Shown here piece after piece: positions 11,471 through 50,214 of a stretch of DNA of 57,062 nucleotides. The position numbers were made by a program, and so were the translations under genes. Every line of letters begins with the position of its first letter. Within the stretch, counting starts at the first letter, position 1. The DNA is from Prorocentrum cordatum (Eukaryota): the NCBI GenBank assembly GCA_963575745.1, contig CAUYUJ010000049.1, positions 62,001 to 119,062 of the forward strand. The letters are read 5' to 3'. The notes under the pieces were generated by a model, which saw nothing but the letters and a program-made list of their open reading frames with translations, made no database searches and was not told the origin of the DNA.

Positions 11471-14167
11471 GAAGCCGAAAACGGCCGAGAACCTCTCGTC
11501 GTGTTTTTCTCATGACGGGAAAGGTCTGGGGGGGAGGGAGAGGAAGGAGGGAGGGATGCCCGATCACCCGACGTCGTTTGTTTTGCTACGTCGGCCCCTT
11601 GTGGTCGGGACGCCTTCCCCTGGACTGGTTTTGCATTCTCGTTTCTTGATGGCCCCGGGGCTTGCTGTGGTGGCCGCGAACGGCCGCAAACCTTCCGTCG
11701 TGATCCCTTGATGACGCGAGGGGGGTCTGGGGGGAGGGGTGACAGGAAGGAAAGACCCGGTCTTCCGGGGCCGTGATTTTTGTCGCTATAAGTCGGCCCC
11801 TGGAAGTCTGGCCCGTTCCACGGGACCGGCTTGTCATCCTGACCAAAAGTTCCGATATCGTGTTTTTTTCTATCGGGGTCCCTGGAGTGGCCCCGAAGTC
11901 CTGACAACTTTCATAGGCCCGGAATTTCGTCCTAAATGTTTGACGGTCCTTGGGCCGTTGGGGGCGTCAGGATGCCGAGAGTTGTCCTGAAGCTTCGGGA
12001 TCGGCCAGAGTGCCTCAGGGCGTCTGGGAAAAAGGCTCTTGGGCACCTCGTGGGGTTTCCTGGCTATCCCTTGGGGCCCGCTTGTTTTCGTTTGGGGGGG
12101 GGGTTCTTGGAGGCTTCTTGGAGTCTCTGGGGCACTTTTGGTAAGGAGGGCTCGAAATGTCGGATGGGGTACCCCTCGGGGCTGTGTGGGGAAGCTGTCC
12201 CGGGGCCCTCTGGGCCCGTCTTGGGGCCCCCTGGGCAGTCGAGGGCCCCTCTTGGGCCTCTTGGAGGCCTCTTGGAACTCTCTTTGGCCGCTTTGGAACT
12301 ATATTGTCGGCTCCTAGGGCCGTTTTCGACGCGGTCGACGCCGAAGCGGTGAACATCGTAAACGGTACGTTTTCCGAAGAAGGAATGGGGCCATTCTTGC
12401 TTCTGGAGGCGCTCTTGGGAGTCCTCTTGGGTCTTGGGGGACTCTTGGGCCGTCGTGGGGGCTCCCAGAGGTCGTCGTGGAGCCATCTTCGGCGTCTTGA
12501 GTCTTGGAGCGACAATTCGGGGATTCTGGGCCCTTTTGGACGTTCGGAGACCTCCTAAGACTCTCCGGTGGCGTTTCGGGGCTGTCTGGGGCAGTCCCGG
12601 GGGGGCACCAGAAGCCTCCCAGGAGCCTCCTGGATAGTCGAGGGCTCCTCTGGAGCTGTCTTGGAGGCCTCTTGGAACTCTCTTTGGCCGTCTTGGGGCG
12701 ATGTTGTGGGCTCCTGAGGCCGTCTTCGACGCGGTCGACGCCGAAGATGTGAATATTGTAGAAACGCATGCTTTCCGAAGGGAATGGGGCCATTTTTGTT
12801 TCTGGAGGCGCTCTGGGGGACTGTTGGGCCGTCTTGGAGCCATCTTCATTCAGCGTCTTGGAGCGACGATTCGGGGATTCTAAGCTCTTTTGGACGTTTG
12901 GAGACCTCCTGGGACCCTCGGGTGGCGTTTCGGGGCTGTCTGGGGCTGTTTCGGGGGGGCCCCAGAAGCCAGGGTCCTCCCATGCGCCGTCAAGGTCGCC
13001 GCCCCATGCGCCCCGGCCTCGTGCACGGGTATGTCTCTCTCTCTCTCTCTATATATGTGTGTGTGTGGTGTGTGTGTGTGATTTGTTCACAACGGAGGTA
13101 CCCCGAGGTCTGGACACCTTCCCACGGACCGATTTTCATCCCGAGTCGCTTTCGACGGTCACGGGGCCCGTTGAGGGCCCCAGGGAAGCCGAAAACGGCT
13201 GAGAACCTCTCGTCATGTTTTCTCACGACTGGAGGGGTCTGGGGGGAAGGGAGGGAAGGAGGATGGAGGGATGCCCGATCACCCGACATCATGATTTCTT
13301 TGCTACGTCGGCCTGGAGGTCGGGGCGTCTTCCCGGGGACTAATTTTTCATCTTCGTTTTTTGATGGTCCCGTGGTTGGTTGAGGGCCACCAATGGCCGC
13401 GGACGGCCGCAAACCTCCCGTCGTGATCCTTCGACGACGCGAGGGGATCTGGGGGAGGGGAGAGAGGAAGGAGGGATGCCTGATCTTCCGATGCCGTGTT
13501 TTTTCGCTACACGTCGGCTCCCGGAAATCCGGACGCCTTCCACGGGACCGGCTTGTCATCCTGATCCAGAGATCCGATATCGTGATTTGTTCAGTGGGGG
13601 GTCCCTGGAGTGGCCCCGAGGTCCCGACAACTTCCATAGGCCCGGTGTTTCGTCCTAAATAAATGTTTAACGGTCCTTGGGCCCGTTGAGGGCCTCAGGA
13701 AACCGAGAATTGTCCTGAAGCTTCGGGATTGGCCAGAGAACCTGAGGGCGTCTGGGGAGAGGGCTCTTGGGAGCCTTTTGGGGCTTCCTGGCGGTCCCTT
13801 GGGGGCCGCTTGGGGGCTTTTTCGGGAGCTCTTGGAGGTTTCTTGGGGCCTCCTGGGTGTCTTCTGGGGAGAAAGGCTGGACATGTCGGGTTGGGTACTC
13901 CTCGGTGTTATGTCGGGAAGCTGTCCAGGGGCCCTCTGGGGCCGTCTTGGGGGCCCCCTGGGCAGTCGAGGGCCCTCTTGGGCCGTCTTGGAGGCCTCTT
14001 GGAACTCTCTTTGGCCGTTTCGGGGCGATACTGTGGGCTCCTGAGGCCGTCTTCGACGCGGTCGAAATCGAAGATGCAAATATCGTAAAAATGCACGCTT
14101 TCCAAAGGGACTGGGGCCATTCTTGCTTCTGGAGGCGCTCTTGGAAGTCCTCTTGGGGGACTCTTGG
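11471..14167. repeat. Two tandem copies (~1.7-kb period) of a dispersed non-coding repeat rich in tcttgg/ggggcc motifs; second copy interrupted at 14167
   Basis: gaagccgaaaacggcYgagaacctctcgtc at 11471 and ~13185, followed by collinear similarity. The first copy has an internal ~400-bp duplication (~12235 vs ~12637) and ends in a CT/TA/GT microsatellite at ~13030-13080. Confidence 0.9.
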
Positions 14168-14199
14168 TTGAAAAAGAGGCTCTCCCACAACAGTTAAAT
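14168..14199 (+). repeat. Left terminal inverted repeat
   Basis: ttgaaaaagaggctctcccacaacagttaaat versus reverse complement of the right end ttgtaacatacgcttcgccaaaacagttaaat; inner 11 bp perfect. Confidence 0.82.
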
Positions 14200-15109
14200 A
14201 CGGTGTTAAGTTGGGAAAACGCTCGGCCATCTCAAGCGCCCGTTTCATAAATAATATTGAACCATGTAATGTTAAACCCATTGCACGATGTTATTGTAAA
14301 TTGCAATGAGTGGCGGGTCGTGAGTATCCTTGTAGATGCGTGCGTTCTCAATTATTCCAGGGGGTACCCACATGTTTGGCAATGGATGTCAACAGTCGGC
14401 GAGCGAGGTAGGCGCTCCGTCGGGGGAGGGGCACGCATTGATATGAACACAAGGGGGCTCAAAAGAGAAAGAAGATGAAACGGATGAGGGAGGAGGGGGG
14501 ACAATGCGGAAGGAGCAGGAGGAGGAATATAGCGTGTTTGCGAGCGTTTACATCGGGAGGTCCCGTGGCGCACCCTTGAAACCACAAGGATGACGGTGGT
14601 GGAGGAGAGTGGGCGCGGGAGGGGAGGAGGAGACGAGGAGCAGTGGGGAGCAGGAGGGAAGGAGGGGGCGGGGGTTGGATGACCGAAGGGACTGGTGGCG
14701 ACGGGTCTCATCGGTCTCAAGTGCGCTTCAATCCGAAATGCTGAGTGCCATTATTATCCCCCCCCCATCGGCCTCAAGATATCTAGAGAGCGCCGCTGCC
14801 CAGACTCTTTCTTGGCGACCTGAGGCTGAGGCTGAGGCTGAGGCTGAGGGTTGGATAGACATGAATTGGTGAAAGATACCTCCTCCAATCTTACTCCGTC
14901 TCTGTCCCTTCTCTCCCTTCCGTCTGTGTGCGCCCGTCCTCTCATTACTTCCTCGCCCTGCCCAATATCACTCCTTCCGTCACTTTTCCTCCGTGCGTGG
15001 TGACAGAACTATAACAAGGCCTGAAGATGTATTTCGTTTGAGTGCACCCCGCCCCGCATTCGAATCCAGCCGGCCAATTTGCATTGCAAATCCCGTCAGA
15101 TCCGTAGCC

Positions 15110-18100
15110 ATGTCGGCCCACGTTGGGTTGGTTCCGCCGCCTGTCCCGCACATGCTGCTTCGAGTGTGTATGTTTGCTGGACTGGTGGCGGCGGCAACGG
15201 CGCCGCACGGCGACCAGCCGCCAGAGCCGCCGCCTGTGCCTGCGCCCGCCGTTGCGCCTCACGGCAGAGGCGCGGCAAGAGGCCGAGGCAGCGGCGGCAG
15301 GGCCGCGGTGGCGGCCGCTGTGGACAGAGGAGGTCGCGGCCGCGGGGCGCCAGGCCGCGGAGGCGGCAGAGGGCGAGCCCGTGGATTCATTCATTCGCGC
15401 GAGACGCGCGATAGGATTCGAGTCAGCACACTTCGTCGGTCATGCGCTGCCCATGTGAACCAGGCAGCCCAGTTTGTCGTGGAGGAGAATGAGCGTATTG
15501 TTGGCAGCGTGATGGCTGGCAGTGGCACGGTCGATCCACAGAAAAGGTACGAGTATGTTGCAACGAGCACGGGACCAATACCAGTGCAATTGAGAGCGAG
15601 AAACACGAGCCGTGCCGATGCCCAACGCTTGCTGGCTAGCCATGCGGGGGCCCAACCCAAGCGCATCAAACGTTGGTTGTCCGATGGGGAATGCGTGTGT
15701 CTGCACGCCGTGAACGTGTTCGACGACGCCTCCATGTGGTTATCCAGGCCTCCAGGCACAGATGATGTCCTTGAAGAAATTGCGTCGAGTGCGACCCATG
15801 CAGTAGCTGCATCGCTGCGCAAGCGTAGGAAGAGAGGCAACATGACACACGCAGCAGTGCTAAACATCCAAGAGGCCTTGTTCAAGTTGGGTGGTCAAGG
15901 GTGTTTGTCCGCCCTTGACGTCTTCAGTCCAGCCCAGGTGTTGCCAATTGCGAACTATTCAACTGTGCTGCAGAGGTGGCGCAAGTGGAGTATCATAAAC
16001 GGCATTGGGCCAGGGGCTGGCATCGACCCCGACAGGGATCTGGACAGGGACACCGCACGACTGGATTGTTGGATTAACTTGGTCATGGTTCGCGACTGCT
16101 TGAGTCTGAATGATTGCCTAGTTGCCAAAACAGAAGCAGCGCTGCAGGACATGCGGGCATCGCTTGAATCACAGAATGTGTCTTCAGATGGAGTGCCTAC
16201 TGTCTTTTCAATGGAGTGTTCTGGGCACAGCGCCGTGCTCAACCTCAAGCCTATATCCGTCACGCGTCGGGTATCCACCGTGCCAGCTCAGCCCGAAAGA
16301 GCCGCCAAGAGAGTGGCCTTGATGGTGAGGGATCTTGGGAACTGTCTTGGCAATCTTGGGCGTCTTGGAAGCCTCTTGAGCCGTCTTTGGGTCATCTCCT
16401 CTCTCTTAGGGCTGTCTTAGGGGGGTCCCAGGGCCATCGTGGGGCCTCGAGGCGCTCCTAGGGCTATGGGAGGCCTCTTGGGAGCTCTGGAGGGCGTCTT
16501 GGAGGCAGTCGATCGATCAAACGATTGGTGGTGCTCCATGTTAGCGCTACCTCCCCATCGTGGGCCACGATCCTTGTGAGGGGTGTCAGCAAATGGTCAT
16601 GCTAATAAGCGCAGAATGACACCCTGACCGCTCGCTCCCCCCCCCTCTCCCTCTCCTCCCTCCTTCCTCCCTGCCGACCTCCCTCCCTCCCTCCCTCCCC
16701 CTCCCTCCCTGCCTCCCTCTCCCTCCCTCCCTCCTATATATATATATATATACTCCTCCTCAAAGGGGAATGAACAATCTCGTTCGACCACCTGTCGCCC
16801 AGAGGGCTGGCGGATTATACCACTTTGGCGGGCTCGCCTCATGCGTGGTCCGCTGCGGCCACCTCTGCCAGAGCTGGAGGGCGGCGGGGCGCTACTCGCA
16901 GGCTTTGGACTGCGAGATCGACCACAGTTTCGAATTCAAGCGCGTGGATGCTCTGCCTGAGGAGCACTATGTGTGGCGCGAGTTCTCCCAGAAAGTGATG
17001 GAGTTGAGCGGATTCGGCATGACGACAGATGAACAGAATGTGATTTTGAAGTACGACAACGGCGATTGGACACAACATGAAATAATACATTGGTGCACGC
17101 CCGACTGCGATTGTGGACGCACCAGGGCGTCATCTGTGAAGCGTGTCAAAACTTCGATCACCATGAGCATTGGCCCAACGCGCCACTTGGCATTGGAGTA
17201 CCGTTGGAAGCACATGGAGAAAGCGGATGCGTGGTGTTACCGAGCTCGTGCACAACACGACTTGGGACTCCGATCGTTTAGGCGTGCATTCGATAGGGCT
17301 GCAGTGGAAGCCGCTGAGAAGGAACTCGCAAGTGCTGCAGCTGATGCTGAAACCCCTGCAGGTGCGACGCAGACCGTCAAGGCTGGAAAAATCATTGATT
17401 ACATGGAGGGTGACACTGGTGGCGCCTCGAATTTGAAGGTTCTTATCTTGCAGAGGCCGCTCCAGGCTTACCTCAATAAAGTGTTCAAGAGCGAGGGTGA
17501 TACTACTAAGTTTGTTGAGCTGTCGCTGTCTGCGCCAGCGGGGGGCCCAGCCCCCGGCCCGAACTCCCCGCTGCAAGACGCGCTCAAGACGTCATGCTCC
17601 CGCAACTTGGACATTATGACAGGCGTTCTGGGTCGATCTGTTGTTCGTAGCTACGCAGACGCTCTCTCCAGTTATGACGACCAGCTCTGGTCGGGCGTGG
17701 AGTGGGGCAGAGCCGACCAGCACGAGATGGCTGGGCGATTGATGCAGAGTATGGGGCAATCTTGGCGCAGGTTGGTTTTCCGCTGCCAGCAGCCGAAGTT
17801 CGAACTACTTCGTGTCTGCGGCGACGACTTTTCAAGTGATGATGACATCTCCAGGGAGATCCGCCAGCTCTGTGCTAAAGGCAATACTTGCGGCGCTTGC
17901 CTCGACGACTGGTCCATAGTCTGGCTGAGGCGCCTCAAGGAGCAGCCCCTCAAAGCACGCGATGCCCGCGTTGGGATGGTTGCTGCGATGCCGCCGTCCA
18001 GCGTCAAGATAGAAATGAAGCATCTCCTTGGACAGGAGACCCGAAAGGCACGATCGAGAGGCATGGCATGTCGTGCCAATGAACTGTCCATGCGGACGTA

Positions 18101-19838
18101 TCTCAGGATGATGTTGAAATCGAACGCTTCGAAGACCAATGCCGTCTGGAGAAAACATGTGCCGACGAAAGTCGCGCGCGTGAGTTTCTCCAAGCATGCT
18201 GCCCGCAATGCGCTGATCAAGCGCGGGGTGACCAACAGGATCCGAGAGGCGCGTCGACGATTGACCAAGAGAAGGCATCGCCCTACTCTGACAAGTGCTT
18301 TCTCAATGTACCGCAAGGTGCACTGGACCCCTGGTATATCTCCATTTACTGCGGCTGGGAAGGCAGAGGCGAGACGGCTGACCCTCGAATTCAAACGACA
18401 GTCAGTTGCATCCGTCACACACTACCAGGCCATGGCCGACCACGTGTCTGCTGAGGTATCCCAGCGCATTGGCGACTTGCATGACGGGCGGGCCACGCTT
18501 CTGGACGCCCATGGCTGCAACAGCAGTGCAGGCAAGCGTCATGTCGGGACGCTCCGCCATTTCGAATACGAGGAGGCGCTCCAGAAGATGCAAGCTGATA
18601 GTTCCTGGGCCGCTGGAGCAGCGCTGGACCACCCGTGGAAGGTGCGGCGACCAGACTTGATCGACAATACTTTGACCATGAAGGGGCTTCAAGAGCGTCT
18701 ACTCAAACACTTTGACAACAGCGAAGTTCCCGTGCCAAACCCCCCAGGCACTGCGCAGCCCAGGTTGCCCTGCTGCGCGATGTATGGTGGTCTCTGTTGT
18801 ACTCGGGACGATGTTGGGACAGTGGGGACATTTGTGAAACACCTTCATTCGCAAATTCGGTCATTGAAGTTTCCAGCGCTGGTGCAGATTGCTGGCCCAG
18901 CGGGGATCGCAGCAGAGAAACATTTTCTGATAGACAAGTATGGGGTTGGGGCACTACACGTCCTGGCTCGAGCGCAGCAAACCCTCGGCGATCCTCAGTG
19001 CTTCAAGCTGTCCTTCGAGCCTGGGCTGATGGGAGTGGCGCTGTCGACGTCGCACATGGTCGGCAATCGTGTGATGGCGAATGCTGCAAGGAGGCTCAAT
19101 AAAGAATCCATCCGAGACTTGGAGACGGTGCAGATCACTATATACGACGCGGTTGATGCTGGTGATACCTTTCATAAGTACTGCGTGCGAGTGGCGGGCA
19201 TCAATGTGCAGAGGGCCTTGCCAATCGCATTCAAGCTGAAGCCGAAGACTGCAGAGGAAAAGAGCGACGCCATCCCCTTCGGGCTCGGCAAGGTCAAGGC
19301 CCCCCCCGAGACTGCCATCAACAAGGGCCCAATGAAGGTGAAGGATGCCGCCCACGCTGCCGGTTACACGGGCTCTGAATCTTCAGATGGATAGTGCGGC
19401 AATGATGAGGATATCGACCCCGAGAGCGGGGATGAGCTGGACTTCGTTGACCCTGGCCGTGTGCCTGCACCTCCTCCTGCTCCTGTTGCTCCTGCTGTTC
19501 TCGGCGTTCTCGGAGGCTTGGAGCGTGCTGGAGTGTCAGGGTTTGAGATCGCTCCGTCGGGGAGGTCGGCATGCCGTATATGCAATCGTAAAGTTGATCG
19601 AGGCCTGCCCAGGTTCCGCTACCAGGTGAAGGCAAGCAACAGCCTTCGCGACAACAGAGTAGTGCATGTTGATTGCATGGCTCGCCTCCCCGATGTGACT
19701 AGAGATTTCGACATTGCGGCGGTCATGCATTTGGCCTCGCAGCCAGAGTGGGACACGGAGCAAGTCGACATCATGAGGCGAGTTATTGCCGCCATGTCTG
19801 GTGGCGGCCCAGGGCCAGCTGCAGCAGCGGCAGCTTGA
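15110..19838 (+). pseudogene. Divergent hAT-like DDE transposase with RG-rich N-terminus, HMG-box-like segment and C-terminal PARP-type zinc finger (one insertion/intron, one in-frame TAG)
   Basis: Motif order FDDAS (~15722), VRDC (~16094), CSGH (~16217), YRW (~17199), PPSSVKIE (~18012) parallels hAT D..D..CxxH..RW..E. ORFs 16770-19394 and 19461-19838 are in one frame, separated only by TAG 19392-19394. EIAPSGRSACRIC...HVDC matches the zf-PARP pattern. Start codon uncertain. Confidence 0.7.
16257..16813. mobile_element. Small non-coding insertion or intron splitting the transposase gene
   Basis: Contains tcttgg-type repeat, (CCCT)n and (TA)n. Ends atccgtca (16255) and tggcggat (16808) are near-inverted. 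Removal restores KPI-LYHFGGL in frame. Confidence 0.65.
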
Positions 19839-19929
19839 CGGGCCCTGGCGGCTCGCAGTAACAAACGCCCTATGCATGTCCCCCGCCCCTCTCATCCCAT
19901 CCCGTCCCTCCGCCTAGCCTCTGGAGAGG

Positions 19930-20270
19930 ATGCCAGCGTATCCCTTTTAACAAACACGTACCTGGAGACACGGGTCTGGAGGAGGAGGCTCGAAGGAGGA
20001 GGATATCATTGAGCTTCCTTGTAGATGCACGGTGGTGGGGGAGGACGGGCAGGAGAGCAACCAGGCTTTCTTCGCACTTAAAGGGCATACGGAGCATATG
20101 CAAGCACTGTTTGAACAAGCCAGGGCTAGTGCAAGCGCTGTTTGGACATCGATCGTTTACGGTGTCGGACTCGGACGCACTCTGAAGTTCGGGGGGATAA
20201 ACAGTTTGCGCATGTACCTGAAACAAATAACAAATAACATAGTGAACATTACTTGTGATGGCTCGCTATG
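19930..20270 (+). pseudogene. Small unknown ORF downstream of transposase (early in-frame TAA)
   Basis: ATG 19930 reads MPAYPF*QTRTWRHGSGGGGSKEEDIIELPCRC in frame into ORF 20032; globular-looking composition. 3' end uncertain. Confidence 0.3.
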
Positions 20271-20502
20271 CCGCTATGCTGCTTTGCTCGTGGTCGTTTG
20301 GACCAGGGGTTTCAGAACCCACGGTGTTTGCAGTTTGCACGCATCCTCAATAACTGTATTTGCCTACTGTCTGAGACTGTCTGCCTCCTCGTCCTCAGCG
20401 CTGCCCTCCAGTGACACCGCCGCTGTTTTTTGCTCCGAGGTTGACGGCAGACGCATCGCCCGATCGCAGCCCTCAGGGATCCCAGGAGCTGCGTGATCCA
20501 AG

Positions 20503-20760: not shown

Positions 20761-20859
20761 GCTTGCGCTGGGGAGTGCAGCAGCCTCGGCCGTGCAGGCC
20801 GTCTTCCCATTCTCAGTCTCCTCTCCCCTTACCTCTCCGTCTCCTTTGCCCTCCACCCC

Positions 20860-21147: not shown

Positions 21148-21211
<64 letters not shown>
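20860..21211. repeat. (GA)n-rich microsatellite with (TA)n core
   Basis: Direct reading. Confidence 0.95.
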
Positions 21212-21212
<1 letters not shown>

Positions 21213-24222: not shown

Positions 24223-26789
24223 TGGGCGTACATGCGCTTGTCATGCGGAGTTCCCCCGAAGCAATGCAAGTGGTTTGCGTGGCGCTGGCGTTTGATGGGC
24301 AAATTCACGCCGCGAGCGTGCAACAAACCCGCGGGCCACCGTGGGCCGAGCCGCAAGATTGAGCGCAGCGCCTCTTGGCCATGGAGCCCACCCTCGACCT
24401 CAGTGGCTGCAAAGCCGCGTTGCCTGATGGCGCCTCGCAGCCTTGTTTGGGCAAGGCCAAACGCTGTTTCTTTTCGGCCGACGGCGAACTCCCAGGGTCT
24501 AGAGGCGCCCCCCCCCCCCGCCGCCAATGGCTGAGATTGTCTGCGGCGCGTGCAAGCCGCGACCCTGGGGGCTACTCGGAGACCCGGGTGCGGCAACCCG
24601 GCGGAGTTCTCGGCCAGTCGCGCACTGGGCGCAGCTACTGGAGTTGTTCGTCACCGACGCAATCGTGCTCTGCAGGCGTCTCGAGCAATCGCCGCAGGCT
24701 GCGCGTTTCTTGTTAGGCGATGGGCAGCGCAAGGCATCCAACGCCATCGGCCGCGCCCGTCGAGGGCCCTGCTACGTTCGCGAAAGGGGGAACGCCACCT
24801 CGGCGGGGAAGTTAAAATGAACGCGCAGCGGTGGCAGCTGCAATTCCTAAGTTTGCGTGTGTCCTGTTGTCTTGTCACGGTGAGCAGCGCAGGACCCGCC
24901 GCGTTCGCCTGTTGGGGCGCCAGCGCGAGCAACAATGGGGCGGTCGCGGCACTGGCGGGGGAACTGAGGCGCCCCAAGAACGGTGCCAAGTTAGACTTTC
25001 AGTTGAACGGGTTCTGTTCTGTGCCCTCGATGGCGGGCGACGCAGAACCTCCGCGCGCGCCCGCTGGGGGCCCAGCATTGCCCGCGAAAGAACAGCGGCA
25101 ACATTGGCCTGGTACCCAACTGAAGCTTGAATGCTGACTGACTGGACTTTGAACTTAACGCTGCTTCTGTTGGGTGCCATCTAGGGTGCACAGCGCGGGC
25201 CCCGAGCGTTTTTTTAGCCCACCCGGCCCATCAACGGCTTGCCGCCGTGATGGCGTGGAAGCTACACGTGAACCCTTAACGGTGGCGAGATCGGTTTTGA
25301 AGATGCACGTGTTCTGTTGCATGCCTGCGCTGGCGAAAAACGCAGCACCTTCTGCGCGCGCGAGCGCCCGTTGGGAGTTCAGTCTGGCCTGGACAAATTG
25401 CCGCAATGGTGGCACGGGAACCGAAGTGAATCCTCAACGCCAAATAGGCCTTGGAAAGTAACATGGACCCTGGTGACCCCGATGCTCCTATGGCGGACAG
25501 CTTGACAAGAATCGAGAGGTCACCATATAGGCTTGGTAAGCAAAGCGGGCCTTGCGCGCTCCTGATTTCAGGTGACCCGCTCGCGTGGGGCACCCACCGT
25601 GCGCAGGTGACCATGGTCACCCGCGCGCGTGGTGAATTGCGTTGTCCACAACTAAAGAGTCGCCATGGTGGCACGGAAACTAAGGCGGCCACTCAGCGGT
25701 GGCGGATTGGAACTGCCAAAGAAACATAGGCTATGTTATAGACCTGGTACATTGCAAAGGTACAGAGCCAACTCCCGCCCGCGCGCGCGTGTTGCGCGCG
25801 CGGTGATTAGTGAGAACAATCGAACCGTCGCCATGTTGGCTTGGAAACTACAACGAACCCTCAACGGTGAACGAGCGGACCTCGGGTGAGCCGCACGCGC
25901 GCCGCGCGCGGGTCACCCGCCGCGCGCGGGTGACCATGCGCGCGCGTCGCGTGCGTGATGCAGCGTGAACTGCCCTCAACCGAAAAATTGTTGCGGTGGC
26001 CTTTGCACTTAAATCAACCCTTGACGGCGGCCGATTGGCGCTTGAAACGTGCATGTGTTATTCGGAATGATTTCGGCAGAATTAAGACGGAACGTCATCT
26101 CCAATGCGCGGGCGCCCGTTCAAAGTTCTGCGTTGTCTATCGAAGGGAAATCACCGTGATGGCCTGGAAATGGAACGTGGCAACTAGGGGTAGCCGGTTG
26201 GTTTTGTTGTGGCTTCCTTGGGCTGTTTCTGGGCCTCTTGGGGGCTTCTTCGGGCCTCGTGGGCTCGAAATACAAGTTCGGCATCCAAGTCTCGGGCTTG
26301 AATTGGCCCCCCCCCCCCCCTAGCGACCATCGGGGCCTCAAAGACCCCGCTTGGACAATGTCGATGCAATATTTAAGACGTCTTGCCCCGTCCCCGAAAG
26401 CCTTCGCTTTCAGTGTTCATGAAGCGTGTCGACATAGTAGGCTTGTTGCGCCATGAATGATTCAGCCCTTACAACGTAATTTTTATTGACGCCCCCGCGG
26501 CCGCCGGCGGGTTGGGGGCATTTGTTCGCCTGCGGGCGCGAAGCAATGATCAAAACGTGAAGAATAAAATTTCGCCGACCCGACATCGCAAAAACAGATC
26601 AAGTATAGTTTTGCTGGGCGAACTTCTCGGGGCCGCCCTGGGGCCTTTTGGGAAGTATGCGGAGCCAGCCTGGGCCGTCTTGGGTGGCTGCTCCGCCACA
26701 AAAAAGAAAATATGCCAAAACACAGCGGCCGAGCATTTCTGCCCGGAGCTTACGCGGATGCGCTTGCAGCGAATAAGGTCTTGACAGTG

Positions 26790-27702
26790 ATAGCGGCAGC
26801 AACAGTGGCAGTTGTAGTGGTGGTGGTCGGAGACGAAGTAGAAGTAGACGTAGAAGGAGACATCGTAGTAGCTGTTCTAGTAATGATATCAGTAGCAGTA
26901 GGAGAAGTAGTAGGAGTAGCAATCGTAGCAGTAGTCTCAGTAGCAGTAGCAGTAGCAAGAGTAATGAAGGTTGTAGGAGTGGTAGAGGTTGCACAAGTAG
27001 TAGAAACAATAGAAGTAGTAATACGTGTAGTAACACTAGTCGCCGTAGAGAAGCAGTTATTGCAGTAGAAGTAGGAGTGGTAGGAGTGGTAGTAGTACTA
27101 GTAGACTAAGAAAAAGCAGCCGAGGTGGTAGCAGTAGAAACTAGTAGTCGCGGTAGGAATCGTAATAGAAAGTAGTAGTAGTAGTCGTCGTAGTAGTTGA
27201 AGTAGGGGTGGTAGGAGTGTTGGTGGTAGAAGAACAAGTAGTCTTAGTTGTACTAGTAGTAGCACGAGTACTCATATTTTACACAGGAAGTTTAGTCAAC
27301 GCACTACTAGTCGACACGTAGAAGTAAAAGTAATAGCCGTAGTAATCGTAGTAGTAGTAGTAATAGTAGTGAAAGAACTGGTATTTTAAATCGTAGTAGT
27401 CTTAGTAGCAGCAGTAGTAGTGGCAGAAGTAGTAATAGTAGTACCGCCACGAGTAGTAGCAGACATAGAACCAGTAGTAGAAGCAATAACCACAGAAGCA
27501 GTCGTAGCGGGAGTGGTCGTCGCAGTAGAATTAGAAGTAGTACTATAAGTAGTAGTCGTCTGAGGCTTAGCCGTATAATGTCTAGTAGCAGCTGTAGTAG
27601 CAGTAGCAGCAGTAGTGGTAGTAATGGCCGTCTTTGTAGCAGTTGTACTAGTAGTAGTAGTAGTAGTAGTAGTAGTCGTCGTAGTAGTAGTAGTAGTCGT
27701 AC

Positions 27703-27750
<48 letters not shown>

Positions 27751-27991
27751 TAGTAGTAGTACTAGTAGTAATAGTAATAGTAGTAGTAGTAGTAGCAGCA
27801 GTAGTAGTAATCGTAGTTGATGTTGTTGTTATAGTTGTTGCCGTTGTACCAGTAATCAACATAGTATCGCCCATACGAGAAACGACACTACGATTCGTAG
27901 TAGTGGTAGCAGTAGTAGTAGCAGCAGCAGCCCTCTACTTTTCAGAGTCTGTCATCATTATGTTCCTCTGTTGTTGACGCAGCTATATCGC

Positions 27992-28041
<50 letters not shown>

Positions 28042-28046
28042 AATAA

Positions 28047-28090
<44 letters not shown>
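26790..28090. repeat. Degenerate (TAG)n tract followed by (GA)n
   Basis: Direct reading; purest at 27650-27800. Confidence 0.95.
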
Positions 28091-28091
<1 letters not shown>

Positions 28092-28462
28092 ACCCACCGT
28101 TTAGCGCTTAGACTGGAACAACCTATCCTTTGGGGACAATGCTGGCTAACACCGAGCGCATCCTAGTCAATCCTAGGCGCAACGCATGGCGCAACATGTT
28201 GCGCAATCTGTGGCTCAACCCTATGTGGTGCACCTCAGTGCGCGTGGCCGAAGCCATGCTTCTGTTCGAGGGTTGTGGGCGTGGTAGATGTCTTCCGACG
28301 GACTGACTTGTCGCGTCTGCCAAGCAGTCCTTGTATCGTTCCCATCACGCACGACCGTTGCTGTTTGGGCTCAAGTTCAGGCGCCTAGAAGCGGTGCAAG
28401 CTCGCCAACGCGAGCTTCCCAACGCCTTGGGCTCTCTCTTGCCGGAGACGGCGGCGGGCGCC

Positions 28463-31106
28463 ATGGGCGGCGGCTCGCGCGAGTCCAAGGCCAAGGCCAA
28501 GGGTGGCAAGGCTAAGAAGAGGAGCGCTGCGCAGCCCGCCAGGCCCGTTGATAATGAGAGGGGCGCGAAAGCAGGGACCGACCATGCCTTGCTGAACGCG
28601 CGCGCGAGAATTTCTGCGCCACGCGCCGCCAGGGGGCCCACGGCTACGAGAAAGACGTGGAGGGGGAGGCCGAGTACCTCTGGTGGCCGAAGCTCGAGCT
28701 CTCCAATACCACGCAGCTGTGGACGCCCGTGGGGGAGGAGTGCGGGAAGTGCGCATGCGTCAGAGGTCGCCACTACTTGAAGGGAACGAGCCAGGAGGAG
28801 CTCAACGAGAATATAAAGGACGGTGGGGAGGAAGCTGAACGACACTGCCGACTTCGAAAGGACCGTGCCACAGGAACCAACGCGCTGCAGGCGTCCGAGA
28901 GCGTCAACGTAAAGGCCGAAACCACCAAGCAGCTAGAGAGTTACAACGACGCGTTCGAGGAGGGTCACTTCCACGATCTTGTTCAGTTTGCCTGTGACCG
29001 CAACCTCCGCTTTCCAGATCAGGAGTCCCTCATTAAGCACATCGAGGAGCAGATGCAGTACGAGGTCGGGTTTGGGGGGGCGGGCGTCCTCGGGGCGTTT
29101 GTGACTGAGATGCCACGTGGCGCCCAGTGCAAATTCAGTCGCGGGATGAAGCGCAGCGCCCTGCGCAGGGAGGTCGAGGGGCACGCCGACGCGGATGGCG
29201 CCAAGGATCGCCACGCCGAGAACGTTGAGGTGGATGGCTTGGCGGCGGGGGGCGACTCGGCCGAGCAGCACTTGCAGGACAGGCAGGACTTCGATGCAGA
29301 GGAACCTTCGCCATCCCCTCCTGTCGGCTTCATGGCGGGGTTCACCACCTCCGCCGCTGGCGCTGCGTCCACGGTGGGATCGGAGGACATCGCGAGCGTG
29401 GCGTCGTCTGTCATTGGTTGCCGTAGCAGAGGCCCAGCACCTCCCCTCTTTGCTTCGAAGACCCGCCATGCGCCAACTTCGATTCGGGCAACCCCGTCCA
29501 CATCAGCGCCAGGTACATCGCCAGGGATCTCCGAGGCGCAGCCGCCCCCGAAGAAGAAGGGCCGTCGCAGCAGCGCGGCGGGAAGCCCAGCCGCGAACAC
29601 CGTCGAGTCGGGGCGAGCGCTGCTCGAAGGGGCCGAGACGGCCTTCCAGCTGTCGGCAATCTGGAACAAAACGTTCAGGCCCCGCGACTTCGAGAACATG
29701 CTCACGATATTGTCGGCCAAAGCTTCGAAGGTGGCTGCTGTGCCGGGCGAGCCTGGCCCGTCTGAGGAATCCGAACTCCTCTTCAACATGAGCGCGAAGC
29801 TCGAGGAGAGCCGCAGCACATACAGGAGCTGAAGGATGCGCCAATGAAGGCAGTCGATAACCCCAGCGATATCCTTGCGATCTTGACGAAAGCAGACGTC
29901 ACCACACAAGCGAACATGCTGAGCACCACGTCGTTCAACCTGATGTCGCTCGGCATTGACGGCATGGTCGCCGCTCTCAAGGTGGCGAAGGACCTTGGGG
30001 GCGCAAGCTTTTCGGTCGGCGCGCTCACTGGCGCAGGGGACCTCGACGAGTTGAAGGCCACCGCGCAGACGAACATGATCTCCAGCTCCGTGGGGAAGTC
30101 TTTGAAGCGTATGTCCGAGGCAGACTACTCAAATATGATGCTCCAATGCGACACCTTGATTGGCCCCGTTGACGTCGGCAGCTTGGACGTCCAGGTTCCT
30201 GCCGTGAGCGAGTCCACTGGGCGGCTGCCTCAGGTGCTGTTCGGCCTCGACGCGATGCGCCTGTTCGGCAAGATCCGGGGGCTCGACTCGTCGGAGGCTT
30301 CCGCAGGATCTGCGAGTGCAAGCTGTCAAATTGGACTCCACCAAACACATGTTGAGCAACGGGCTTCGCTGTCTCATCAGGGTCAGCGGGGGGGCAGGCA
30401 GCAGCGCCAAGGCTGCCTGGGACTGCATCGCGAAACAAGATGTCGGGTCGGAGATCGGGCCGCTCGCATTTTCCGTCGAGGAGTCTTTGAAGCAGTTCAC
30501 GTCTGAGATCGGGGGGGCCCTCACAAGGATGGACAATGGGGCCGCCGTGGAGCAACTGTGCACTTCCCTCGTGAAGGCCGCTGAGGGCGAAGGCAACGAC
30601 ATCGACCTGTTCTCGAAGTACGTAGACACGCTCGACGACGACGAGGACAAGATCGGCCAGAAGAACGTCGAGCTGCTGAAATTGCGCGACGAGTTCATCT
30701 CGACGACTTGCGCTGCCATGTCGGCGGTGCTTTCCCACTACGGTAACTTCTCAGCGTACGCGAACGTCATCATGGCCAACAACTTGTCGTACTCGTCCCC
30801 AGGCCCCTCGTTGTGTGAATGGTGGAGGGGTGGAGGCGCGGCTGAAATGATATGCCAGAGTATCCTTTCTGGGAGGAGGGCGAGGATGATAAGAAAGAGG
30901 ATGGAGGGGGGATAGAGGGGGGAAGAGAATCGGTGAGGGGGGGGAGGATAGGAGGATGAGGGCGAGGATGAGGAGGGAGAAGAGGGCCAGGGCGAGGAGG
31001 ATGAGGAAAGACAAGGGGGACGAGGAGGATGCGGATGAGGAAAAACAGTCGGAGTAGGAGAGGCGGATAACATTATGGATAAATGGGGGGGCAGTGCGGC
31101 AGAGGG

Positions 31107-31138
<32 letters not shown>

Positions 31139-32845
31139 GAGGATAATCGAAAACACTTCCAGGGGCAATCGCGTTCGCTGTTCGCTGGGTCTCCTGGGGC
31201 CGACGGGGCCTCCCGTTAACAACGTCGGACTTGAGCCAAACGCGATGCATGGGCCCCGACTGGGGCGCAGCAGTGGCAACCACCGTGGACGGCAAATCCG
31301 AAACGCCATGTTTGTTTGGTGGCCAGAGAACGCTTCCATCATGATTTGACTCGTGGCTAGAGAACCGCCCCGTGCCTCCCCCAGTTGTGTGGCAATATAA
31401 ACGGTCGCGAAACCCTGTGGCAATCTAAATTAGATTGCCACAGGGCCTGGCGACCGTTTCCGCCAATTGCCACAGGGCCTCGCGACCGTTTAGATTGCCA
31501 CAAGGCCTCGCGACCCATTAGAGTATCTAAAGGGTCACAAAGCCCCCCCTCCTTTGTTCCTGCAAGGTGAGTCGGGCATTCTTGATAAGTATGAGGCCGA
31601 CCCCTTCCAGCTCGTCGTTCAGGTCGCGACGTTCTTGCTGTGCTTTGATCTCGGTGCATCCGACAGAGCTGTCATCGTCGAGGCGCAGCAGCGCAGCCAG
31701 ATCATGGTTGACGTAGCGGACGTGCAGTCCCGCAGCAACTACAAGGACAGCGCCTCTGTGGCCACCATGTGGAGCGAGATCTGGATCAAAGAGGGGGCTT
31801 TGAAATGCGCATCCAAAGTGAAGGACACCAACGCCGCATGTTTCCAAAGCCTCTCCGAGGAGTTGTCGTCTTACTCCGTGCAGGCCCCCATAGACGTGAT
31901 TTTCACGAATATCGTTGGCAGTCCAGAGTGCCGCAAGGTGGAATTGAAATTCTTGGCTGCCATGAAGACGCTTGAGTCTCGCCTCCCGCCCTCCGTGGCA
32001 TCGTTGGTGGATTCAGCGAAGTCCTACATGCCGATCCGCCAGTGCTGCGAGCAGATCTCCCAGGGCAAGAGCGTAGGATGCATTGCGGCAAACACCCACC
32101 TTCGTTTGCACGATGGCCTGCACGACGTCGTCAAGGGGAAGGCCGAGATGAAGACGTGGAAGGACGCCCTGATCAAGGAGTGGCAGGCGGGTGCCGCGAT
32201 GATCGTGTCGAACTTGGACGCGACGCACGTCGACGCGTTCCTCGCGAAGTACGGGCCTGACGGCGAGAACCTCTGGGGTCTCATCGTGACGTGGACCTTC
32301 GACGAGAAGCGCTGGCTGGCGAGCTCGACCCCAGATGCACTGCGCGAGGCCGAGTTCCAGAAGGCCGAATCGTTCGTTGTGAACTTCACGATGTCGGAGC
32401 GCATCGTCGAGGACCTTTGCGCAACGACGCTGCCGGCCTCCTGGGCTTCCCCTGGCGAGCTCGAACAGCTGCGTGACACCAAGAACAAGCTGCCCAGCCT
32501 CAAGGACAAGCGGAACCAAGTTGCAAAGCTGATGGGGGCGGCAGTGCTGTGCAACGCCATCGTGACCGACGTCAGCAAGCAATCCACTCTGAAGTACGTG
32601 ACTGGCGCCTGGGGGTTTCCTTGGCGACGCTCCCCGCCTCTCTCGCCCAGAAGTTAGAGGATGCGTCTGGGCAGGGCGCAGCCTCCAAGGAGGTGTCGGC
32701 AGCGGCGCCTGGCAAGACGGAGTTCGCTGCCGCGGCCGCTGCAGCGTCAGCCAGCAGCAGCAGCGCGGCGGCCGCAGGCAGCGGAACGGTGCCTAAGAAA
32801 AGCCTTCTCGTCAAGCTCCCGCCCCCCAAGAAGAAGATCCAGTAG
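28463..32845 (+). pseudogene. Large unknown cargo gene (~1200 codons) with N-terminal Cys pairs, helical body and NLS-like motifs; frameshifted, one intron
   Basis: Consecutive ORFs 28657-29832, 29844-~30310, 30316-~30800, 31554-~32610 and ~32610-32845 share a strong GC3 coding pattern. FCAT(R) and CGKC pairs; PPPKKKGRR and terminal PPPKKKIQ. Confidence 0.65.
30790..31574. mobile_element. Insertion or intron within cargo gene with 4-bp flanking repeat GTCG
   Basis: GTCG at 30786-30789 and 31571-31574; excision gives NLS-GILDKYE in frame. An AG|GC donor at 30803 and AG|G acceptor at 31566 also keep frame. Confidence 0.6.
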
Positions 32846-33636
32846 TTAGTGTTTCTCTCAGTTCCTAGTTTTGCCGATGCGCGATTCTGAATCGCGCGGC
32901 CATTGCGCCGCGTGCTTTCCCAAGCCATGCGTCGCCGATTCCTTGTGCCCGAGGCCCCGCGGGAAGATGCGTTGTGCCCGAGGCCCCGTTCTTTTCAGCT
33001 CGCAGTTGCGAACGCTTTGGCGTGAGAGTGCGCTGAAAGCGTACGGGTTGCAATGGAGAATTTCCTCTGAGGCCCCGTGGGCAATCCGTGGCCTGTGCGA
33101 GGGCGAGGGAAGGATAGAAGGACAGGGAGGGGAAACGACATGGAGGGGAGGGACGAGCAGGAATGAGAGAGGAGTCAGGGATGGCCAACATCGGTTTGCC
33201 ACTGCGGAGAGGCCACTCGGGGCAGTAGAGCAGTGACTAAGACGCTGGATTCAGCAAAACAGTAGGGGAAAACATGAAAATCAACAAGGTGAGGTTGCGG
33301 TTGCCGCTGTATTTTCTCGCCGTGCTCATGAAATGCCATGCGTCCCTCTTATCGTTGATCGACTGCGTCGGCTAGCTCAGGTATGCCCCCGCTTGAGTTT
33401 CGGAGTTGCTCTGATTGATGTTATGGGCGACTGGGTTTGTGAAGTGACAGTTTGAGTTGCGAGATTCGTAGGCGGGGCTCTCCCTTTCTGGCATGTAGGT
33501 GATCAAAGCTCTCGTCTGGGTGCTCTCCCTTTCTGGCAATGCAATGCCACCGTGTAGTAAATATAACAACAAATTTACAGTAACCCATTTAAGACGTAGT
33601 TCAATTTCGGCAATCGTCCTGGCAATCTCTTTGGCC

Positions 33637-33668
33637 ATTTAACTGTTTTGGCGAAGCGTATGTTACAA
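33637..33668 (-). repeat. Right terminal inverted repeat
   Basis: atttaactgttttggcgaagcgtatgttacaa, immediately followed by TSD actcttgg. Confidence 0.82.
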
Positions 33669-34070
33669 ACTCTTGGGCCGTCGTGGGGGCTCCCGGAGGC
33701 CGTCTTGGAGCCATCTTCGGCGTCTTGGAGCGACGATTCGGGGATTCTGGACCCTCTTGGACGTTTGGAGACCTCCTGGGACCCTCAGGACCCTCAGGTG
33801 GCGTTTCGGGGCTGTCTGGGGCTGTCTCGGGGGGGCCCCAGAGGCCCCGGTCCCCCCATGCCCCGTCGGGGTCGCCGCCCCGGGCGCCCCGTGCACAGAA
33901 ATATATCTGTATATCTATATTTCCACATATATATATATATATACACATACATCTATACATGTATATATATATATATATACATATAGACACGCGCATGTAC
34001 ATGCGCAGGGGGTAAATATATGTGTAGATGTACAATTTTGTGTATGCATGTTTGTGTACAGGCGTGTGTA
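33669..34070. repeat. Resumed second half of the repeat copy interrupted at 14167, ending in a (TA)n-rich tail
   Basis: actcttgggccgtcgtgggggctccc...gtgcac matches 12441 onward and 12830-13026. Confidence 0.9.
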
Positions 34071-35862: not shown

Positions 35863-35897
<35 letters not shown>

Positions 35898-50196: not shown

Positions 50197-50214
50197 TGGG
50201 TGGTGTGTGTGTGC

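What the first reader, a model, noticed from the sequence alone, without database searches (positions are those of the whole stretch)
14160..33676. 19.5-kb giant TIR transposon with TSD, TIRs and its empty site all visible in the window
Seen: a repeat copy breaks after ...ggggACTCTTGG (14167) and resumes 19.5 kb later as ACTCTTGGgccgtcgtgggggctccc (33669). The paralogous copy at 12421-12500 has the same sequence with a single ACTCTTGG at 12441. The insert ends are 32-bp inverted repeats (24/32, inner aacagttaaat perfect). Known: 8-bp TSDs with short TIRs typify hAT (also P) elements, which are usually only a few kb. Inference: this is one mobile unit carrying a transposase, two small ORFs, repeat arrays and a ~1200-codon cargo gene, i.e. 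a large multi-gene DNA transposon family that I do not recognise as described.
Basis: partly seen in the sequence, partly recalled or inferred. Interest (0 to 1): 0.92.

Follow-up and report, generated by a model that had tools for sequence, protein, structure and literature searches.

The report
Large hAT-like transposon in a dinoflagellate
A 19.5-kb stretch of a dinoflagellate genome is a genuine cut-and-paste transposon insertion whose very large transposase folds like hAT-family enzymes yet belongs to a big protein family that standard databases do not recognise, and it carries a second, unrelated gene.

Summary
An insert of 19,501 bp (14168-33668) is flanked by a perfect 8-bp duplication, ACTCTTGG. 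Its ends are imperfect inverted repeats (24/32) with a perfect 11-bp core found nowhere else in the window. With the insert removed, the flanks align without a break to a paralogous repeat copy that holds one ACTCTTGG.

The insert encodes one long transposase-like gene of about 1,370 codons (15170-19835). In this copy a ~550-bp insertion or intron interrupts it, and so does an in-frame TAG. It belongs to a large family: 568 cluster representatives, with no transposase Pfam model matched. The family has an invariant D, D, CxxH, E pattern. A confident AlphaFold model of a homologue matches the Hermes hAT transposase best (Z 13.4-14.6, ~380 residues). The model also shows an HMG box, and the sequences carry a PARP-type zinc finger.

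A second gene (28463-32607, a 975-aa Prorocentrum cordatum model) has no detectable relatives and a different codon bias. Both genes have a relict dinoflagellate spliced leader just upstream.

Verdict: this is a real, structurally hAT-like transposon of an undescribed lineage. No second copy with ends could be examined, so it is not shown that all 19.5 kb moved as one unit, nor that a family of such giants exists.

The parts
12441..12448 (+). Single ACTCTTGG in the uninterrupted paralogous repeat copy (the 'empty site' paralogue)
   Evidence: BLASTN of the joined flanks runs across it.
14160..14167 (.). Left copy of the 8-bp target-site duplication ACTCTTGG
14168..14199 (+). Left terminal inverted repeat (TTG...AACAGTTAAAT)
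15102..15122 (+). Relict dinoflagellate spliced leader (17/21 matches), 47 nt upstream of the family's conserved MFA start
   Evidence: The motif is as printed in PMC5585692.
15170..16255 (+). Transposase gene, first part. It holds D-D (codons at 15722 and 15725), the second D (16094) and C..H (16217, 16226).
16256..16814 (+). Interruption of about 559 bp that is absent from homologues P0001 and L001. It holds a CTCTTGG-type minisatellite and a (CTCC)n tract. In-frame GT (16259 or 16271) ... AG (16801-16802) sites exist, so it may be an intron.
16815..19391 (+). Transposase gene, second part: alpha-helical insertion domain (YRWK at 17202-17207), catalytic E (18012), HMG-box-like region (about 18273-18567) and a beta-rich domain (about 18876-19224)
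19392..19394 (+). In-frame TAG inside an acidic linker of the transposase reading frame
19395..19835 (+). Same frame continued: the family's C-terminal PARP-type zinc-finger domain
   Evidence: Pfam zf-PARP E 4.2e-4, below its cut-off. BLASTP to the C-terminus of P0001 gives E 6e-15.
19836..28354 (.). About 8.5 kb with no recognised gene. It holds an (AG)n tract at 20933-21211, 164-bp units in direct and inverted order at 21929-22787, AGT/TAG-rich satellite-like DNA at about 26804-27880 and an (AG)n tract at 27995-28090.
   Evidence: No Pfam hit in the 36 ORFs scanned that lie in this stretch.
28355..28375 (+). Second relict spliced leader (17/21; the last 8 nt are perfect), 88 nt upstream of the ATG of gene 2
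28463..32607 (+). Gene 2: a 975-aa gene model (P0151) in seven exact blocks with six gaps of 50-764 bp. It has no Pfam domain and no relative was found. GC3 is 0.76-0.81.
33637..33668 (-). Right terminal inverted repeat
33669..33676 (.). Right copy of the 8-bp target-site duplication ACTCTTGG

Best explanation
This is one insertion of a class II (cut-and-paste) DNA transposon into a copy of a ~1.7-kb host repeat in Prorocentrum cordatum. The element's own large DDE transposase has the hAT architecture: an RNase-H-like core with the catalytic E placed after a ~400-residue alpha-helical insertion domain, and a CxxH motif after the second D. It belongs to a divergent lineage that Pfam does not recognise. 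This lineage adds an HMG box, a beta-rich domain and a PARP-type zinc finger after the catalytic domain.

Inferred mechanism, by analogy with Hermes and other hAT enzymes: the transposase binds the imperfect TIRs, probably at the conserved AACAGTTAAAT core 22-32 nt from each tip. It excises the element by DDE-catalysed cleavage and integrates it with an 8-bp stagger, and repair of that stagger gives the ACTCTTGG duplication. The built-in HMG box would bend the DNA and the PARP-type finger would hold DNA ends or nicks.

This copy is probably no longer autonomous, because it has an in-frame TAG and a ~550-bp interruption. Gene 2 is passenger DNA, most likely a retroposed host gene.

Shown: the TSD, the TIRs, the empty paralogue, the conserved D/D/CxxH/E pattern and the Hermes-like fold of a homologue. 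Inferred: catalysis, which motif is bound, what the extra domains do, and that the whole 19.5 kb moved together.
For: - **Junction anatomy.** It is well beyond chance.
- **One gene across both long ORFs.** Homologue P0001 (1,376 aa) aligns at E 3e-38 and 6e-94. The C-terminal part follows in the same frame after the TAG.
- **Family size.** 568 cluster representatives at E <= 1e-3, and 98 at E <= 1e-30.
- **Conserved residues in 18 full-length members.** D 18/18 with the adjacent D 17/18, second D 18/18, C 18/18, H 18/18, E 18/18. The window copy keeps all of them.
- **Structure.** The AF2 model of homologue P0012, built with 91 sequences, has pLDDT 88.2 and pTM 0.87. The first D lies on strand 42-59, the second D directly follows strand 183-190, C/H sit after strand 220-225, and E lies in helix 643-653 after an all-helical stretch.
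- **Fold searches.** In Foldseek PDB the top 8 rows are all Hermes chains (probability 0.99-1.00, E 2e-3 to 1e-2). VIA against 48,161 chains puts Hermes 8edg_A first: Z 13.4, rmsd 5.7, 381 aligned, model 1-686 against chain 135-609. In the second look Hermes scores Z 10.2-14.6, against P element 7.7 and RAG1 4.9 or less. The BFVD top hit is a Pandoravirus hAT protein with probability 0.99.
- **HMG box.** Family profile against TFAM gives E 2.5e-7, and the fold search gives Z 8-9.
- **Other copies.** Diverged copies of the transposase gene (5-13% nucleotide differences) lie beside exact pieces in contigs of run X1.
- **Little decay.** Only one stop in about 1,370 codons argues for a fairly recent copy (inference).
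Against: - **No sequence-level link to hAT.** None of the 73 members, nor the window ORFs, hit any transposase Pfam family even at E <= 0.5. No transposase chain appears among the 54 PDB sequences matched by the family profile at E <= 10.
- **Weak Foldseek statistics.** No Foldseek E-value reaches 1e-3.
- **Modelled protein.** It is a homologue with 34% identity to the window's first part and 26% to its second part in alignment A1, not the window's own protein.
- **Termini and target.** The termini are TTG...CAA and the outer 21 nt of the TIRs match poorly. The target ACTCTTGG does not fit the hAT nTnnnnAn preference (recalled), though this is a single site.
- **No second copy with ends.** Co-mobility of the 19.5 kb is therefore untested.
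- **No independent check of the junctions.** No read-level support was obtained. The one contig in X1 that joins 14159 to 33669 may come from another copy of the high-copy flank repeat.
- **Comparison is incomplete.** As far as I recall, MULE, CACTA, Kolobok, KDZ and Novosib transposases have no solved structures, so 'closest to Hermes' is a comparison among solved folds only.
Confidence: 0.75

Rival explanations
1. The unit that transposed was much smaller, for example TIR - transposase - TIR of about 6-7 kb. The rest arrived later at this locus. Gene 2 came in as a retroposed cDNA, and satellites and other repeats entered by nested insertion or expansion. On this view the '19.5-kb giant' is an accretion and not a mobile unit.
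For: Gene 2 has a relict spliced leader 88 nt upstream of its ATG, which is the published mark of dinoflagellate retrogenes (PMC5585692, passages seen). Its GC3 is 0.76-0.81, against 0.57-0.65 for the three parts of the transposase. No relative of gene 2 was found, so it is not a conserved partner of the transposase family. The middle 8.5 kb is heterogeneous: GC runs from 0.41 to 0.62 per kb and it holds microsatellites and 164-bp repeats. Parts of it are very high-copy in run X1.
Against: No internal TIR remnant was found. The 11-bp core, the subterminal 21-mers and the outer 20-mers find nothing else inside the insert. No TSD or poly(A) tail was seen around gene 2 (by eye). The gene 2 model has six gaps read as introns, which is unexpected for a fresh retrocopy. 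Anything lying between the TIRs would be carried along in any later move, whatever its origin.
Confidence: 0.35
2. The element is not a hAT. It is the first characterised insertion of a separate superfamily of DDE transposons, centred on dinoflagellates, that shares with hAT only the ancient 'RNase H core + insertion domain + CxxH' plan and the 8-bp stagger.
For: There is no sequence-level hit to hAT or any other transposase model in 73 members, nor with the family profile against PDB sequences. The termini are unusual. The domain set is also unusual: an HMG box and a PARP-type finger, with no BED finger detected. The proteins are about twice the length of Hermes.
Against: Hermes aligns over about 380 residues covering both the core and the insertion domain, at Z 13-14.6. 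That is about twice the score of the P element transposase, which also gives 8-bp duplications. A viral hAT protein is the best BFVD hit. Superfamily limits are a matter of convention and need a phylogeny that I could not build.
Confidence: 0.3
3. The join is an assembly artefact or a chance resemblance, and no insertion exists in the organism.
For: The flanks are a high-copy repeat (summed depth of about 5,400 in run X1), which is a setting where assemblers make errors. I obtained no reads that bridge either junction.
Against: A misjoin would not create an exact 8-bp duplication of the paralogue's single site. Nor would it create mirrored 11-bp cores at equal distance from both breakpoints, or a transposase gene inside. 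The window has no N.
Confidence: 0.03

Closest known systems
hAT superfamily transposons (Hermes, Ac, hobo, Tol2)
   Same: 8-bp TSD and short TIRs. A DDE core interrupted by a large alpha-helical insertion domain, with a CxxH after the second D. Hermes is the best structural match (Z 13.4-14.6, about 380 residues).
   Different: No hAT Pfam model matches, including the C-terminal dimerisation domain. No BED finger was detected. An HMG box, a beta-rich domain and a PARP-type zinc finger are added. The protein is about 1,370 aa. The termini are TTG...CAA. The element is 19.5 kb, against 4.6 kb for Ac (abstract of PMC3260210 in the listing), and it carries a second gene.
P element / THAP9 transposases
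   Same: 8-bp TSD (recalled). RNase-H core with an insertion domain. Structural match at Z 7.7-7.8 with about 255 aligned residues.
   Different: The structural score is much lower than for Hermes. No THAP domain and no Tnp_P_element Pfam hit was found.
RAG1/Transib recombination with HMGB1 as DNA-bending cofactor
   Same: Works-like analogy only: a DDE enzyme of the same broad class that needs an HMG-box protein to bend its DNA sites (recalled). Here the HMG box is part of the transposase itself.
   Different: The RAG1 structural match is weak (Z 4.9 or less). Transib gives a 5-bp TSD (recalled).
Gene-carrying or giant eukaryotic DNA transposons (Pack-MULEs, gene-capturing CACTA, Teratorn, Starships)
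   Same: Unrelated gene content lies between transposon ends, and the size is far above that of a minimal autonomous element.
   Different: The enzymes differ: Teratorn is described as piggyBac-like and 180 kb (abstract of PMC10175614 in the listing), and Starships use a tyrosine recombinase (recalled). Here only one copy is known and co-mobility is not shown.
Dinoflagellate retrogenes marked by relict DinoSL
   Same: Both genes of the element have a 17/21 match to the spliced leader on the coding strand just upstream of the ORF. That is the criterion used in PMC5585692.
   Different: The genes sit inside a DNA transposon. The transposase ORF carries an interruption and the gene 2 model has six introns, whereas classic retrocopies are expected to lack introns.

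Membership tests
hAT superfamily | 8-bp target-site duplication | tested here: met
   ACTCTTGG at 14160-14167 and 33669-33676. The neighbouring bases differ, so it is exactly 8 bp.
hAT superfamily | Short terminal inverted repeats | tested here: met
   24/32 matches with a perfect 11-bp core. 1 of 200,000 random pairs reaches 24/32.
hAT superfamily | Characteristic termini (YARNG-type; recalled definition) | tested here: not met
   The termini read TTGAA... and TTGTA....
hAT superfamily | DDE RNase-H-like core with a large all-alpha insertion domain before the catalytic E, and an overall fold like Hermes | tested here: met
   Tested on the model of homologue P0012 (pLDDT 88.2). Hermes scores Z 13.4-14.6 with 370-381 aligned residues, model 1-686 against chain 135-609. 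All the catalytic columns are kept in the window copy.
hAT superfamily | CxxH motif downstream of the second D (recalled from Yuan & Wessler 2011) | tested here: met
   C and H are each 18/18, lying 33-42 residues after the second D in the family members and 41 and 44 residues after it in the window.
hAT superfamily | Sequence-level membership: hAT C-terminal dimerisation domain and other hAT Pfam models | tested here: not met
   0 of 18 members at E <= 0.01, 0 of 55 at E <= 0.5 and 0 of the window ORFs.
hAT superfamily | N-terminal BED-type zinc finger (common, not universal; recalled) | tested here: not met
   No zf-BED hit. The DNA-binding modules found are an HMG box and a PARP-type finger instead.
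hAT superfamily | Target preference nTnnnnAn (recalled) | tested here: inconclusive
   The single site ACTCTTGG does not fit on either strand. One site cannot define a preference.
hAT superfamily | Hairpin formation on flanking donor DNA during excision | not testable with these tools
   This needs biochemistry or excision footprints.
P element / THAP9 | THAP DNA-binding domain and a GTP-binding insertion domain, with a fold like 6p5a | tested here: inconclusive
   No THAP or Tnp_P_element Pfam hit. 6p5a_A scores Z 7.7-7.8, well below Hermes.
Dinoflagellate retrogenes | Relict DinoSL upstream of the coding sequence | tested here: met
   15102-15122 and 28355-28375, each 17/21. These are the only two hits with 4 or fewer mismatches in the window, and 0 of 60 shuffles gave any.
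Dinoflagellate retrogenes | Processed (intron-free) structure with a poly(A) trace | tested here: inconclusive
   The transposase has one ~550-bp interruption that relatives lack. The gene 2 model has six gaps. No poly(A) was seen by eye.

The most novel reading that the evidence does not exclude
Dinoflagellate genomes may harbour a large, undescribed lineage (possibly a superfamily) of hAT-fold transposases with a built-in HMG box and a PARP-type DNA-end-binding finger. The genes of this lineage would repeatedly pass through trans-spliced mRNA and cDNA. A relict spliced leader sits at the 5' end in two members that are only 40% identical. Its elements would reach about 20 kb and ferry retroposed host genes. 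That would make them a DNA-transposon vehicle contributing to the huge number of dispersed gene duplicates in these genomes.
Probability: 0.25. Interest if true: 0.8.

Novelty: new variant of a known kind. Interest (0 to 1): 0.6.

Why it matters
Dinoflagellate genomes are enormous, and in P. cordatum 64.8% of genes are dispersed duplicates (PMC10666404, passage seen). Their autonomous DNA transposons are barely characterised, and that genome paper speaks only of non-autonomous introner elements.

This window gives a complete insertion (TSD, TIRs and an empty paralogue) that ties a large, unannotated protein family to transposition. The family has 568 cluster representatives and no Pfam model. 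The insertion assigns the family a fold (hAT-like) and an unusual set of DNA-handling domains. It also shows that such an element can hold a foreign gene.

This makes three things directly testable: annotation of these genomes, the origin of introner-type non-autonomous elements, and the part DNA transposons play in gene dispersal.

Tried and rejected
- **Whole-genome search for further copies:** no genome is held for this window.
- **Cluster names and sources for homologues:** the database was switched off.
- **ESM Atlas:** closed, or the sequence is not held.
- **The search for related loci:** with the 91- and 13-sequence alignments there was no stretch conserved enough. With the window protein in viral contigs, 13 pattern matches were found but none was a relative. 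With a 7-sequence alignment in metagenome contigs, one locus came back: L001, a 3,712-bp contig with a partial and partly frame-broken gene and no ends.
- **Sequencing runs:** there was one weak holder (X1, 0.14 of the words) and no RNA holder listed. The laid contigs are short and low-coverage. No listed piece bridges a junction. One contig joins 14159 to 33669 (8 shared letters, 32 on the shorter side), but it cannot be told apart from another copy of the flank repeat.
- **Rfam and tRNA scans of the window:** nothing found.
- **Pfam on ORFs:** 42 ORFs in and around the insert gave only the zf-PARP hit. 17 ORFs elsewhere gave only a Copia-type RT.
- **AF2 of gene 2 without an alignment:** pLDDT 35.9, unusable, so it was not searched.
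- **Subterminal repeats:** only GCTCTCCC occurs three times, all on the same strand. This is not convincing.
- **Internal TIR remnants:** none found, so a macrotransposon built from two elements has no support.
- **TSD or inverted repeats around the 559-bp interruption:** nothing convincing by eye.
- **Earlier scan findings:** none for this genome, and the three MITE notes returned are unrelated.
- **Literature:** searches found no description of this family. Repbase and Dfam could not be consulted.

Full report
**1. Observation**

A repeat copy stops at ...gggggACTCTTGG (14160-14167). It resumes at ACTCTTGGgccgtcgtggggg (33669-33676). A paralogue carries a single ACTCTTGG at 12441-12448 in the same context.

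The bases next to the duplicated octamer differ on both sides, so the duplication is exactly 8 bp. The insert runs 14168-33668, which is 19,501 bp.

Read inward, the two ends match at 24 of 32 positions. Positions 22-32 (AACAGTTAAAT) are identical. That 11-mer occurs only twice in the 57-kb window, once on each strand at mirrored distance from the breakpoints.

Of 200,000 random pairs of 32-mers from the window, 1 reached 24 matches and 5 had an identical run of 11 or more.

When the insert and one octamer are removed, 1,037 bp of flank aligns to window 11584-12616 as one BLASTN segment. It runs across the junction at 81% identity over 1,063 columns. The window contains no N.

**2. Organism and setting**

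No genome is held for the window. A protein search with an ORF of the insert returned a 100% identical NCBI entry named 'unnamed protein product [Prorocentrum cordatum]' on a 119-kb contig. The window is therefore from this dinoflagellate.

The target is a ~1.7-kb repeat rich in degenerate ...TCTTGG... decamers. It is very high-copy in contigs of run X1.

**3. The transposase gene**

The two long + strand ORFs, 14873-16420 and 16620-19394, are parts of one gene. Homologue P0001 (1,376 aa) aligns to the first at residues 66-372 (E 3e-38) and to the second at 374-1208 (E 6e-94), with no gap between them.

In the metagenome locus L001 the two parts are also contiguous (1165/1166) inside one 721-codon ORF. 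The window copy therefore carries about 559 extra bases (16256-16814). These hold the same TCTTGG-type minisatellite as the flanks, plus a (CTCC)n tract. In-frame GT (16259 or 16271) and AG (16801-16802) sites exist, so it could be spliced out as an intron. This is untested.

The second ORF ends at a TAG (19392-19394) inside an acidic linker. The same frame continues to 19835 and encodes the family's C-terminal domain. That domain gives BLASTP E 6e-15 against the C-terminus of P0001 and Pfam zf-PARP E 4.2e-4, which is below the curated cut-off.

The full reading frame is about 1,370 codons (15170-19835), the normal length for the family. In this copy it has one interruption and one in-frame stop. 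With only one stop in that length, the copy is little decayed (inference). The imperfect TIRs are therefore more likely a family trait than a sign of age.

**4. The family**

phmmer against 1.84 billion cluster representatives found 568 proteins at E <= 1e-3, 318 at E <= 1e-10 and 98 at E <= 1e-30. Full-length members have 1,130-1,400 aa. Many of the rest are fragments. Three fragments are 78-87% identical to the window protein.

No transposase Pfam model matches:
- 0 of 18 full-length members at E <= 0.01.
- 0 of 55 further members at E <= 0.5.
- 0 of the window ORFs.

Recurrent weak hits are HMG-box models (11 of 55) and zf-PARP (4 of 55). The family profile matches the HMG boxes of TFAM (E 2.5e-7) and the PARP1 zinc finger (E 3.9e-3). 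It matches no transposase chain among the 54 PDB sequences listed at E <= 10.

In an alignment of the 18 full-length members these columns are (nearly) invariant:

| Motif | Conservation |
|---|---|
| D-D-A-x-x-W | D 18/18, second D 17/18 |
| R/K-D | D 18/18 |
| C-x-x-H, 33-42 residues later | C 18/18, H 18/18 |
| Y-R-W-K | R 18/18; Y 16/18, W and K 17/18 |
| V-E-x-K-H-L-x-G-Q-E | E 18/18 |

The window copy keeps all of them. Their codons are at 15722/15725, 16094, 16217/16226, 17202-17207 and 18012.

**5. Fold**

The tools do not accept a joined protein, so I modelled homologue P0012 (1,142 aa) with a 91-sequence alignment that includes both window parts. The model has pLDDT 88.2 and pTM 0.87.

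The conserved residues fall where a DDE transposase has them:
- The first D lies on strand 42-59.
- The second D directly follows strand 183-190.
- C/H sit just after strand 220-225.
- A mostly helical stretch (236-640) follows.
- E lies in helix 643-653.

Fold searches gave:
- **Foldseek against the PDB.** No E-value below 1e-3. The top eight rows are all Hermes (hAT) chains with probability 0.99-1.00, and the next row is unrelated with probability 0.12.
- **VIA-align against 48,161 representative chains, independent of Foldseek.** Hermes 8edg_A ranks first: Z 13.4, rmsd 5.7 A, 381 aligned, model 1-686 against chain 135-609. HMG boxes follow on model 743-835 (Z 8-9.4), then retroviral integrase cores (Z about 8) and the P element transposase (Z 7.8, 256 aligned).
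- **Second look at Foldseek's list.** Hermes Z 10.2-14.6, P element 7.7, RAG1 4.9 or less, Mos1 4.4 or less.
- **Viral library.** The best hit is a Pandoravirus 'HAT family C-terminal dimerization region' protein with probability 0.99 and E 1.2e-2.

So the catalytic half is hAT-like in architecture. The family adds an HMG box, a beta-rich domain (model 941-1060, not tested separately) and a PARP-type finger.

Caveat: as far as I recall, several superfamilies have no solved structure (MULE, CACTA, Kolobok, KDZ, Novosib). 'Closest to Hermes' therefore holds among solved folds only.

**6. The rest of the insert**

Between 19836 and 28354 I found no recognisable gene. Of the 42 ORFs scanned in and around the insert, none besides the transposase C-terminal part had a Pfam hit. 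This stretch holds (AG)n tracts, 164-bp units in direct and inverted order (21929-22787) and AGT-rich satellite-like DNA.

Gene 2 (P0151, 975 aa) maps to 28463-32607 in seven exact blocks separated by gaps of 50-764 bp. It has no Pfam domain. The word-based search found no relative other than itself. A single-sequence AF2 model was unusable, with pLDDT 35.9.

Gene 2 has strong third-position bias, with GC3 0.76-0.81 and GC2 0.41-0.51. For the three parts of the transposase, GC3 is 0.57-0.65. That suggests a different origin (inference).

**7. Relict spliced leaders**

Scanning the window with the 21-nt DinoSL motif printed in PMC5585692 (passages seen) gave only two sites with 4 or fewer mismatches. 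Both are on the + strand:
- 15102-15122, 47 nt before the family's conserved M-F-A start.
- 28355-28375, 88 nt before the ATG of gene 2.

None of 60 block-shuffled windows gave any such site.

L001, whose protein is only 40% identical, shows a leader-like stretch with a one-base indel about 20 nt before its own M-F-A start. I saw this by eye in the sequence printed; the ungapped scan missed it.

By the published criterion, both genes have passed through trans-spliced mRNA and cDNA. For gene 2 this favours a retroposed host gene as passenger. For the transposase it suggests that cDNA recycling is part of the family's history. Alternatively, the leader remnant may be kept for a function such as the promoter role proposed in that paper. 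The evidence does not decide between these.

**8. Independent data**

Only one public run held part of the stretch (X1, 0.14 of the words), and no RNA holder was listed.

Its contigs include pieces identical to the window (310 and 389 nt with 0 differences). They also include pieces of the transposase gene with 5-13% differences, so further diverged copies exist in that organism.

One contig joins 14159 to 33669 with 8 shared letters, which is the empty-site form. The flank is a high-copy repeat and only 32 letters lie on the shorter side. It may therefore be another repeat copy and not the allele. No listed piece bridges a junction.

**9. Interpretation**

Best reading (0.75): a genuine cut-and-paste insertion of a structurally hAT-like element of an undescribed lineage. 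It is probably no longer autonomous and carries a retroposed passenger gene.

Open points:
- Whether all 19.5 kb moved together (accretion rival, 0.35).
- Whether the lineage should be called hAT or a new superfamily (0.3). These two overlap with the best reading and do not exclude it.
- An assembly artefact is very unlikely (0.03).

**10. Novelty**

I rate this as a new variant of a known kind. None of the literature searches found a description of this family or of large hAT-type elements in dinoflagellates. For these I saw the search listings with the abstract openings they print, plus passages of PMC12130899, PMC10666404, PMC5585692 and PMC12014239.

The P. cordatum genome paper mentions only introner elements and 'non-autonomous DNA transposons' (passages). 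Its supplements were not read, and Repbase and Dfam could not be consulted.

Interest is 0.6. The find is solid and informative, but the 'giant multi-gene family' claim rests on one copy.

Noticed in passing
window 15102-15122 and 28355-28375; L001 about 205-226: Relict dinoflagellate spliced-leader sequences lie directly upstream of both genes of the element. A similar stretch lies upstream of the transposase ORF of a 40%-identical metagenome homologue. This implies that the genes passed through mRNA and cDNA.
   Followed up: partly
window 16256-16814: The interruption in the transposase gene carries the same TCTTGG-type minisatellite as the host repeat that the element inserted into. Contigs of run X1 join the two kinds of place (for example 14002 to 16349). 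It may be an introner-like insertion.
   Followed up: partly
window 40242-42932 (-): An 896-codon open frame with a Copia-type reverse transcriptase match (Pfam RVT_2, E 6e-8). This is an LTR retrotransposon remnant downstream of the element.
   Followed up: no
window 1-7691 (-): A chain of long minus-strand open frames (251-568 codons) with no Pfam hit. There is also a 300-bp direct repeat, 99% identical, at 1-300 and 2929-3228. It may be another repeated element or gene.
   Followed up: no
window 9000-11000, 35480-36300 and 50200-50800: Long arrays of GTGCGT-type, CAT/CAC-type and GT/G-rich simple repeats with extreme strand skews. GC skew reaches 0.38-0.60 and AT skew reaches -0.93.
   Followed up: no
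window 26604-27935: The AGT/TAG-rich satellite inside the element has enormous summed depth in run X1 (about 70,000-94,000). It is also present in runs X2 and X3 of other organisms, so it is a widespread simple-sequence family.
   Followed up: no
window 25825-25845: A weaker spliced-leader-like site (15/21) on the + strand, about 110 nt upstream of a 129-codon open frame at 25934-26320. It is not significant on its own.
   Followed up: no
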